From positions 88,936,022 to 89,000,021 of the forward strand of contig JASCQW010000072.1 in the NCBI GenBank assembly GCA_030264375.1: a stretch of 64,000 nt of DNA, read 5' to 3'. This document shows positions 671 to 17,602 of the stretch, one piece after another. This DNA comes from Carcharhinus longimanus. Taxonomy: Eukaryota. Below the pieces are notes generated by a model, which worked only from the letters and a program-made list of their open reading frames with translations, did no database searches and had not been told where the DNA came from. Both the position numbers and the translations under genes were made by a program. Positions within the stretch are counted from its first letter, which is position 1. The number at the start of each line of letters is the position of its first letter.

Positions 671-1821
671 GGGGCCATCTTACCAAAAAAAAATTCTAAA
701 TGCCAAACGAGTGTGAAAATGCAAGAGAATCATGCTTTTTTTTGGGCGAGATAAAAATCAAACCTTACCTAACTTTGTTAAAAATATTCAACCAAATTTT
801 GTTTCTTGCCAGCAGGGACAGGGGAGCTGGGCACAGCTTGCCAGAAAGCCAGCAAAGGCTGCCATTGCACATGTATAATGTGACTACCTCCCCAGCTATC
901 ATTGGCTTGCAAGGCCAACCGCGGGCGNNNNNNNNNNNNNNNNNNNNNNNNNNNNNNNNNNNNNNNNNNNNNNNNNNNNNNNNNNNNNNNNNNNNNNNNN
1001 NNNNNNNNNNNNNNNNNNNNNNNNNNNTGCAAGGCCAACCGCTCCCCCCCTCTCCCCCGATGCCAATAGCCCCTGCCTCCCCACCCCCCCCCTCCCCCCC
1101 GCCACCCCAATGCCAATAGTCCTTGCCTCCACAACTAAAACAGTGTCCAACATTAGATATGATTCCGCGATTGGATAACAGATGCAAAATAATCCTCAGT
1201 GTGCTAGAAATATGCCAACAACCAATTTAAGATTATCAGTCACACAGACGGTGTGGCGCATTTATGTATATTGGAAGCAACATATATTAATACACAGGGT
1301 CTTGTCCTCTGCAGAGAGACAGGACATGTATATATATTGTGCCTGCTTCAGCTTAACAAAATATGTTATGGTCATTCACTGGCTCATTCATCAGGGCAAT
1401 ACCATAGCCTGTTCCTGTGCTGTAATTTTTTTTGTTCTTTGTTCTAAAAGCTTCAACAAAACTTTTCATTTTCAGCAATATTCAAGTTCTGTACTACCAA
1501 ATGACTATTTGCATCTATTTATTATTTATAGATATATTATATCTATATTTATTATACCTATATTATGTTTATTATTTAAAAACTATACCACTGCATAGTA
1601 TTAGCATCATATTTTATGTTTTGTCATGTTGAGTTTGAGCGAATTATAATTTATACCTTTACAACTGAGAGAGTGTTTCAGGTTTGATTTTGACTATTTG
1701 AAAATGACATTCACAGTTAACAATCAAATTTACATGCAGCTGCTGTCAAGTTAACTTGATAAAAAGCAAGACTAGGATAAATTACCTAACTTCTTGCAGA
1801 CACCAGTTGATCATTACTTAC

Positions 1822-1905
1822 CTGATTTTGGTACTGAAACTTGTTGGACATATGCTGCAGAACCATCCTCTAGTTGAATCACTTGACCATCAACTAACTT
1901 CCCAT
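1822..1905 (-). CDS. ZNF143: ZNF143/Staf third coding exon (84 nt), DGKLVDGQVIQLEDGSAAYVQQVSVPKS
   Basis: tttcag acceptor and gtaagt donor, phase 1/1; translation matches the VQLEDGS/TxAY repeats of the ZNF143 activation domain. Gene continues beyond the left edge. Confidence 0.96.
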
Positions 1906-2058
1906 CTGAAACAAATCAAATATATCTCATCATATTGGAAAGTGCAGATTCTTTCAAGCACCCAGTAAGTAAATCTACCTGTGTTTGCATTGCTGAGCTA
2001 TACAGTTCTGGAAGGTTCCAGGTACTAACCCTGCTCATGTCTGTTTTACCTGATACCA

Positions 2059-2272
2059 TGATGTGGATGTGCCGGCGTTGGACTGGGGTAAACACAGTAA
2101 AAAGTCTGACAACACAGGTTTTCTGTAAACTGTCTGTGCTTTATATGCTCTGTCTGAGGCCAGAACTCTCCATTCACCTGACGAAGGGACTAACCCGAAA
2201 GCTTGTGCGTTTACTATCAAATAAATCGGTTGGACTAAAACCTGGTGTTGTCAGACTTTTTACTGTGTTTAC
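2059..2272 (+). mobile_element. Penelope-like non-autonomous element with inverted ends and hammerhead motif
   Basis: Inverted repeat about 2087-2118 vs 2241-2272; CTGACGA-A-GGG-actaa-CCC-GAAA at 2178-2200; flanking 14-bp direct repeat tttacctgatacca (2045-2058, 2268-2281). Confidence 0.7.
2175..2207 (+). ncRNA. Minimal type I hammerhead ribozyme-like motif
   Basis: Stem I CAC/GTG, core CTGACGA and GAAA, stem II GGG/CCC, palindromic AGCT in place of stem III. Confidence 0.6.
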
Positions 2273-2805
2273 CTGATACCAGCCAGAGCAACAATAGGTT
2301 ATTAAAATTGGCCACAATATCCCGAGGCTAAGGTGAATGAAAGAAAATCAATTAGGCTTCTTATTCATGATCGATGATTCTGCTGGAAAGTTGGTGAAGG
2401 GAGAGAAGATCTCAGGTGTATTTTAATGCTCACTATTGTTAAATTATTGTTATATTCAGTGTGTAGACTAACTCAATCAGAGGCACTCAATGGCAGCAGG
2501 TGTCTGTAGAATTTGTATCCAGTACATCAACAGAGGAAGACTGAAAAGTGGACAAAAAGCATTAGTGGCAGTTGGGAGAGGTTTTGGGGCAGCAGTGATG
2601 AAGGAATGGGAAACACTTTTTAATATATAAACGACTGATACACATTTAGTTCCTAGAATGTTAAAAATCTTGTGTTTACCATCACGCTAAAACAAAGTTA
2701 GAGTTGTAAACAAAATTATGTCAAAAGGCTAAAATTAGGCAAAATACACATGGATTAAATAACAGAATTGCTGTACAATTAGAAATTCACCATGAAAGTC
2801 TACAC

Positions 2806-2898
2806 CTTTAGGATTGTGTTGAATATATGCTGTCGTCCCATCTGCAAGAGTAACAGCTTGTAAACTCACACCATCCATATTTTCTAGTCGATCACCAT
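2806..2898 (-). CDS. ZNF143: ZNF143 second coding exon (93 nt), [31 protein letters not shown]
   Basis: tttag acceptor and gtgtag donor, phase 1/1; near-identical to vertebrate ZNF143; visible inside ORF 2735..2983. Confidence 0.96.
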
Positions 2899-3182
2899 CT
2901 AAATTTAAAAAAAAACTAATTAAAGCAATTTTGTACAGAAATTCAACAATCTTCTCCCTACATATATCCACATAAATGCACACTCATACAGTAATAGAGT
3001 CATTGAGAAAAGGTTATTAGAAAAAACTAATCAGCAATGCTTACAAACACCTTGATTACAATGCATTACCACAACATTTGTGATTCTATACTCTCCCAAT
3101 AAAAAAAAGTTTTCTTTTCCCATTAGGTTGATCTTCACTAAAGAACATTACACTATTGTTGTCAGTGCCATTCTTAACATGG

Positions 3183-17405: not shown

Positions 17406-17602
17406 GCACATAGGAAGAAGTCCCGCAATGCCAAGTTAAAGTCCAGCAGGTTTATTTGGAATCACGAGCTTTTGGAATGCTGCTCCTTGATGGAAGAGCA
17501 GTGCTCTGAAAGCTCTTGATTCCAAATAAACCTATTGGACTTTAACCTGGTGTTGTCAGACTTCTTCCTGTGCTCACCCCAGTCCAATGCTGGCATCTCC
17601 AC
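17406..17602. mobile_element. Palindromic copy of the same Penelope-like repeat family
   Basis: About 80-bp imperfect inverted arms centred near 17490; shares ...ttggact..aacctggtgttgtcagactt with the 2.1-kb copy. Confidence 0.7.

What the first reader, a model, noticed from the sequence alone, without database searches (positions are those of the whole stretch)
2045..2281. Intact-core minimal hammerhead ribozyme in an inverted-end Penelope-like insertion with a 14-bp TSD
Seen: CAC-CTGACGA-A-GGG(actaa)CCC-GAAA-GC-TT-GTG at 2175-2207, inside a ~210-bp insert whose left end is the reverse complement of its right end, flanked by tttacctgatacca twice; part of that repeat is microhomologous to the element end. 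Established: Penelope-like elements carry minimal type I hammerheads whose palindromic stem III lets them cleave as dimers, and they often have inverted termini. Inference: a non-autonomous, possibly self-cleaving retroelement inserted antisense in a ZNF143 intron.
Basis: partly seen in the sequence, partly recalled or inferred. Interest (0 to 1): 0.7.

Follow-up and report, generated by a model that had tools for sequence, protein, structure and literature searches.

The report
Shark Penelope stump with minimal hammerhead
This is an ordinary 209-base stump of a very common shark jumping gene (a Penelope-like retrotransposon); its hammerhead ribozyme motif is real, but it lies on the strand opposite to the ZNF143 gene around it and, as a lone copy, is predicted not to cut itself.

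Summary
In detail: hammerhead core 2178-2204, 14-bp direct repeat 2045-2058/2268-2281, 36-nt inverted arms. The genome has 13,102 exact matches to a tight pattern of this motif (control 0). Longer copies run upstream into a reverse transcriptase plus GIY-YIG-like frame with the Neptune/Nematis-type CX4CxxC linker. Among 27 related copies picked without using the core, variation falls on N7, H17 and stem-loop II, and stem II covaries, so the source elements carry a selected minimal hammerhead. The layout (inverted end, one-sided tail, TSD) is published for Penelope elements. This copy is antisense in a ZNF143 intron, has weak 3-bp stems, no partner motif, and is likely inert. No empty site was found. 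One extra signal: all 36 TSD-bounded inverted insertions pair one tailed with one tail-less end, and the tail-less end shows excess target microhomology (2.0 vs 0.8 nt), which fits priming from both cut strands. The scan noted this class and this idea before in other shark genomes (192 notes).

The parts
2045..2058 (+). Left copy of the 14-bp direct repeat, likely target site duplication
   Evidence: family TSD lengths 10-19, mode 12-13, in 36 insertions; no empty site seen
2059..2122 (-). Short arm: inverted copy of the element's last ~64 nt, carrying the full tail
   Evidence: 94% to the end of natural copy L050 on the minus strand
2123..2273 (+). Long arm: 5'-truncated sense pLTR piece ending 28-34 nt short of the tail end (tail-less end)
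   Evidence: 93% to L050; 96-100% to many copies; end classes
2175..2207 (+). Minimal type I hammerhead motif: stem I 2175-2177/2205-2207, core 2178-2184 and 2197-2200, stem II 2186-2196, palindromic AGCT 2200-2203, predicted cut after 2204
   Evidence: family conservation and covariation
2268..2281 (+). Right copy of the 14-bp direct repeat; first 6 nt also match the element (microhomology)
1820..1906 (-). ZNF143 coding exon downstream (in transcript direction) of the insert; acceptor about 140 nt from it
   Evidence: tblastn of shark ZNF143 protein P0020, 93% over 29 aa
2806..2896 (-). ZNF143 coding exon upstream (in transcript direction) of the insert; approximate bounds

Best explanation
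The insert is a short, 5'-truncated landing product of an abundant shark Penelope-like retrotransposon, holding one real minimal hammerhead motif antisense to ZNF143, and this lone copy is likely inert. Shown: family size, the RT and GIY-YIG-like frame upstream in longer copies, motif conservation and covariation, tail/tail-less asymmetry, unique junction, orientation. Inferred: the element's protein made a staggered cut (12-14 nt), both cut strands primed reverse transcription on element RNA, one at the tail end (64 nt copied) and one about 34-38 nt further in, helped by 6 nt of pairing (151 nt copied), and the two short cDNAs were joined head to head. The hammerhead would work in the source elements' RNA, probably as a dimer or with the element's protein; in this copy it is a passenger.
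For: 13,102 motif matches, control 0; 238 with this exact stem II. Upstream sequence of copies L055 and L059 runs into an ORF end with CX4CxxC and VYL..RCRKGC..WYIG motifs; L093 and others add RT pieces (RVT_1 E 1.7e-4 to 8.9e-7, all three under the curated cut-off); homologues carry RVT_1 and one, P0008, GIY-YIG above cut-off. In 27 of 29 readable copies chosen by upstream sequence, catalytic positions match the majority at 0.956 (flanks 0.957) while stem-loop II is 0.74, N7 0.63 and H17 T or A, never G. Stem II pairs 2-4 are Watson-Crick in 56, 56 and 47 of 68 distinct sequences against shuffle means 40.5, 33.2, 30.5; 0 of 10,000 shuffles reach them. Of 83 inverted end pairs, a TSD was found in 36 of 65 tail/tail-less pairs, 0 of 10 tail/tail and 0 of 8 tail-less/tail-less. 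Junction unique. Published parallels: PMC3846280, PMC8557442, PMC4209133, PMC11167929.
Against: No full-length intact element of this subfamily was recovered (long frames were assembly gaps), Pfam gave no hit on the family's own endonuclease part, and no RT tree was built, so the clade rests on one motif. No empty site: the TSD is inferred from the family. The covariation comes from few related subfamilies, so the shuffle test overstates it. 29 of 65 tail/tail-less pairs had no detectable TSD (pairs were formed from any two ends within 1.5 kb, so some are unrelated neighbours). [quoted passage not shown] Inactivity of this copy is a prediction only.
Confidence: 0.88

Rival explanations
1. The ~215-nt fold-back unit is itself a non-autonomous mobile element (retrozyme- or MITE-like) that is copied as a unit and self-cleaves.
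For: Several insertions have a similar size and layout, 199-227 nt with arms reaching about -60 to -73 and -154 to -183 (L001-L005, L011, L133), although six of these seven come from the search with this copy as query.
Against: The junction pattern matches once in 2.68 Gb; arm ends in the 21 gap-free insertions spread from about -32 to -374; one motif only, no tandem; the sequence is collinear with the 3' end of coding copies.
Confidence: 0.05
2. Same element, but the inverted arm arose by self-priming or template switching of one cDNA, or by end-joining repair, and the microhomology reflects repair or the endonuclease's sequence taste rather than a second primed strand.
For: PMC3846280 proposes self-priming on an antisense template; PMC11167929 finds no target-template homology at the start site. 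My null cannot separate primer pairing from target preference or repair.
Against: Both outer ends sit at two fixed positions of the element (0 and about -35 to -38), matching two RT start sites, and either arm can be the long one; PAc cleaves and extends both strands in vitro.
Confidence: 0.35
3. This copy has been co-opted to regulate ZNF143, through cleavage of an antisense RNA or through its long hairpin in the pre-mRNA.
For: It is shared by related samples at about 1% flank divergence; the 36-nt arms form a long hairpin on the plus strand (MFE -77.5 kcal/mol for 2059-2273) and would on the minus strand too; it lies about 140 nt from a splice acceptor.
Against: An intact core is expected without selection: 18 of 27 relatives are intact, close to what background decay gives. 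The motif is on the non-transcribed strand. No sign of extra conservation was found.
Confidence: 0.03

Closest known systems
EN+ Penelope-like insertions with inverted pLTR, one-sided tail and TSD (Pen2a_Av of Adineta vaga, PMC3846280; general scheme in PMC8557442 fig. 2 legend)
   Same: Inverted pLTR piece at one end, 30-40-nt tail on one end only, flanking TSD.
   Different: Here no ORF lies between the arms, and TSDs are longer (mode 12-13 bp against 8-10 bp in the rotifer examples).
Minimal hammerheads of metazoan PLEs (Cervera and de la Pena 2014, PMC4209133; Xena, Poseidon, Neptune of fishes)
   Same: Full core, extra base between positions 9 and 10.1, G10.1-C11.1, palindromic 15.2-16.2, hypervariable covarying helix II, mostly single dispersed motifs.
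   Different: Helices I and II of this copy are only 3 bp (4-5 and 7-8 bp in the Schistosoma families). Sharks are not named in the parts I read.
PAc, Poseidon element of Anolis carolinensis (PMC11167929)
   Same: Hammerhead about 90-125 nt upstream of two preferred 3' ends that bound the tail.
   Different: PAc is Penelope/Poseidon clade; this family has the CX4CxxC linker of Neptune/Nematis. PAc priming was reported as not homologous to the target, whereas these junctions show excess microhomology.
Non-LTR retrozymes (bioRxiv 10.64898/2026.07.22.740005)
   Same: Type I hammerhead in pLTR-derived, non-coding sequence; reported in one chondrichthyan genome.
   Different: Retrozymes are tandem arrays with two or more motifs; this is a single motif in a fold-back stump.

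Membership tests
Minimal type I hammerhead of PLEs | Core C3 U4 G5 A6 N7 G8 A9, G12 A13 A14, A15.1-U16.1, H17 | tested here: met
   2178-2204; H17 is G in 1 of 90 and 0 of 27 copies
Minimal type I hammerhead of PLEs | Extra base between 9 and 10.1; G10.1-C11.1; palindromic 15.2-16.2 | tested here: met
   A2185, G2186-C2196, AGCT 2200-2203; features as listed in PMC4209133
Minimal type I hammerhead of PLEs | Covarying helix II across families | tested here: met
   90 loci, 68 distinct stems; core-independent sample; related sequences, not independent events
Minimal type I hammerhead of PLEs | Helices I and II long enough to form | tested here: inconclusive
   3 bp each in this copy, U-C mismatch next to stem I where 24 of 27 relatives have U-A; stem I probability 0.04, stem II 0.19 in context; the paper's descriptor figure was not visible
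Minimal type I hammerhead of PLEs | Self-cleavage as dimer or with protein | not testable with these tools
   needs a cleavage assay
Rfam hammerhead models | Covariance-model match | tested here: not met
   no hammerhead family among 8 matches at E<=10 in 1500-3000
EN+ Penelope-like element | RT followed by C-terminal GIY-YIG upstream of the pLTR in longer copies | tested here: met
   family-level, from broken copies; own endonuclease piece had no Pfam hit
EN+ Penelope-like element | Inverted pLTR, one-sided tail, TSD | tested here: met
EN+ Penelope-like element | TSD proven by an empty site | tested here: inconclusive
   5 of 8 runs laid cover the right flank and all 5 carry the element end; 3 do not cover it
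Neptune/Nematis clades | CX2-5CxxC linker before GIY-YIG, absent in Penelope/Poseidon | tested here: met
   CX4CxxC in L059, L093 and others; definition in PMC8557442
Neptune/Nematis clades | RT phylogeny | not tested
   no named reference set was at hand
Non-autonomous unit (retrozyme or MITE-like) | The unit is copied as such, or forms tandems with two or more motifs | tested here: not met
   junction unique; arm lengths vary; single motif

The most novel reading that the evidence does not exclude
Penelope elements insert by priming from both strands of a 12-14-nt staggered cut, one strand at the tail end and the other at the internal start site with help from target-RNA pairing; this would explain the inverted end, the one-sided tail and the TSD together, and the more than 10,000 shark copies make it testable from genomes.
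Probability: 0.5. Interest if true: 0.5.

Novelty: new member of a known kind. Interest (0 to 1): 0.2.

Why it matters
The locus itself is ordinary: one of more than 13,000 such motifs in this genome. It shows that sharks hold a very large, varied Neptune-type Penelope family with minimal hammerheads; my search for Penelope + shark + ribozyme listed two papers, neither on this by title. The family's junction statistics bear on an open point, how Penelope elements make inverted ends and tails (called undefined in PMC8557442), but that signal belongs to the family, not to this copy, and earlier notes of this scan already raise it.

Tried and rejected
Rfam scan: no hammerhead hit. Folding of the motif alone is not better than shuffles; the unconstrained two-copy fold did not give the dimer helix, which says little for such short helices. 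Long open frames at two places were assembly gaps, so no full-length element was obtained. Pfam found nothing on the family's 343-aa thumb-endonuclease piece, nor did the PDB sequence search; the protein atlas gave no answer. Pfam on 23 of the window's 123 long frames: none. Empty site: X7, X8 and X14 did not cover the flanks, which is no proof of anything. No RNA holder listed. My first microhomology null (shuffled targets) was too lenient because the TSD finder itself extends into the element; it was replaced by simulated blunt joins. Eight of 21 gap-free insertions have an arm ending at -124 to -141, near the front of the hammerhead, but for diverged subfamilies this may only be where likeness to my reference ends, so I did not use it. 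Literature searches for a two-strand priming model of Penelope elements listed no paper on it by title or abstract start; the library lacks most subscription papers, and figures S1-S2 of PMC11167929 could not be seen (text search of its 3 supplementary files was empty).

Full report
Observation. By itself the motif is weak evidence: the loose pattern is not above chance in the window, folding is unremarkable and Rfam has no hammerhead hit.

Family. The insert finds 1,977 candidates in G000 with best copies at 88-100%. A tight pattern that fixes the core and leaves stem II free has 6,531 + 6,571 = 13,102 exact matches and 0 for the reversed control; 238 have this copy's stem II. Walking upstream from related copies leads into the end of a reading frame with a CX4CxxC motif and a GIY-YIG-like stretch with two internal cysteines. 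Further copies add RT motifs; three RT pieces hit RVT_1 below its curated cut-off, and homologues hit RVT_1 and, in P0008, GIY-YIG above cut-off. By the definitions in PMC8557442 (passages) this is an EN+ Penelope-like family of Neptune/Nematis type; no tree was made and no intact full-length copy was found.

Is the hammerhead real? In 90 loci, taken from the first 90 of the 100 listed pattern matches, stem II pairs 2-4 are kept through G-C/A-U exchanges beyond all 10,000 shuffles, and H17 is T 44, A 26, C 19, G 1. Because that pattern presupposes the core, I repeated the test on copies picked by upstream sequence (29 loci, 2 dropped for gaps): the 11 core positions agree at 0.956, equal to flanks (0.957), while N7, H17 and stem-loop II are the variable places. 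So the source elements changed only where a hammerhead allows it (NUH rule: PMC3138052, passages). Individual copies decay without sign of protection: 18 of 27 are intact, about what background divergence gives. This matches Cervera and de la Pena (PMC4209133, parts 1-2 of 4 read), who report such motifs in fish PLEs, no cleavage for a single motif and low cleavage for dimers; PAc's hammerhead cleaved only with protein and was not needed for insertion in vitro (PMC11167929, parts 1-2 of 4).

This copy. It has 3-bp stems, a U-C mismatch where 24 of 27 relatives extend stem I, stem I probability 0.04 in context and no second sense motif nearby. ZNF143 runs on the minus strand, the insert lies in the intron at about 1906-2805, so the pre-mRNA carries the antisense of the motif. 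I infer it is inert. Contigs of five of eight runs laid cover the right flank and all five carry the element end; two of them (X1, X6) were also seen to carry the left junction. The insertion is therefore shared among close relatives, and no empty site was seen.

Architecture. Element 3' ends fall in two classes, the full tail (0) and about -35 to -38. Across 202 loci, 87 inverted end pairs within 1.5 kb were found; after dropping 4 rows from two duplicate loci, TSDs occur in 36 of 65 tail/tail-less pairs and in none of 18 like-ended pairs; lengths 10-19, mode 12-13. Arms vary in length, either can be the long one, and this copy's junction occurs once in the genome. Thus the fold-back is made at each landing and is not a mobile unit. 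The layout is published for rotifer Penelope elements (PMC3846280, passages) and as a general scheme.

Mechanism. Inferred: a staggered cut leaves two 3' ends, each of which primes reverse transcription, one at the tail end and one at the internal site; the two short cDNAs are then joined. Support: both outer ends sit at fixed element positions; PAc extends both strands and has two start sites bounding the tail; microhomology at the tail-less end totals 72 nt in 36 junctions against 29 for simulated blunt joins (0 of 20,000 resamples; 38 against 17 in the 21 junctions not chosen by similarity to this copy, fraction 0.00025), and 47 against 29 at the tail end (0.017). Against: the null does not model target preference or repair, PAc priming was described as not homologous to the target, and self-priming has been proposed. 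I put the two-strand model at about even odds. My searches did not list a paper stating it, within the limits of the library; the chondrichthyan species and tables of the retrozyme preprint (parts 1-2 of 5 and passages) are in supplements I could not see.

Earlier notes. A sequence look-up found nothing; a word look-up found 192 notes in at least 15 genomes on the same class, several with the same two-strand idea. These are unchecked notes and add no independent support; one of them prompted the junction test.

Verdict. Real motif, real insertion, known kind; not a separate non-autonomous element and likely not an active ribozyme here. Interest 0.2.

Noticed in passing
window 17440-17602: A second, older piece of the same superfamily (84% over 80 nt of the 3' end) with a small fold-back and a decayed hammerhead core.
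   Followed up: partly
L032-L060, motif region: Stem-loop II takes many sequences within an otherwise 96%-uniform pLTR subfamily, keeping its pairing; this hints at many co-existing source elements or local exchange.
   Followed up: partly
P0005, P0007, P0009, P0010, P0015: Annotated shark host proteins (septin 5a, XRCC5, PPP1R12A-like, USP8 isoforms) include 74-87% identical pieces of this element's frame, which may be exonised pieces or annotation errors.
   Followed up: no
L183:2518-4573: A longer insertion with hammerhead motifs on opposite strands about 2 kb apart, around a match to the endonuclease frame.
   Followed up: no
L146, L154, L128: Three insertions sit in the same motif of another common repeat, a possible preferred target.
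   Followed up: no
G000, many family loci: Assembly gaps often fall in the centre of these fold-back insertions, so short-read assemblies under-represent them.
   Followed up: partly
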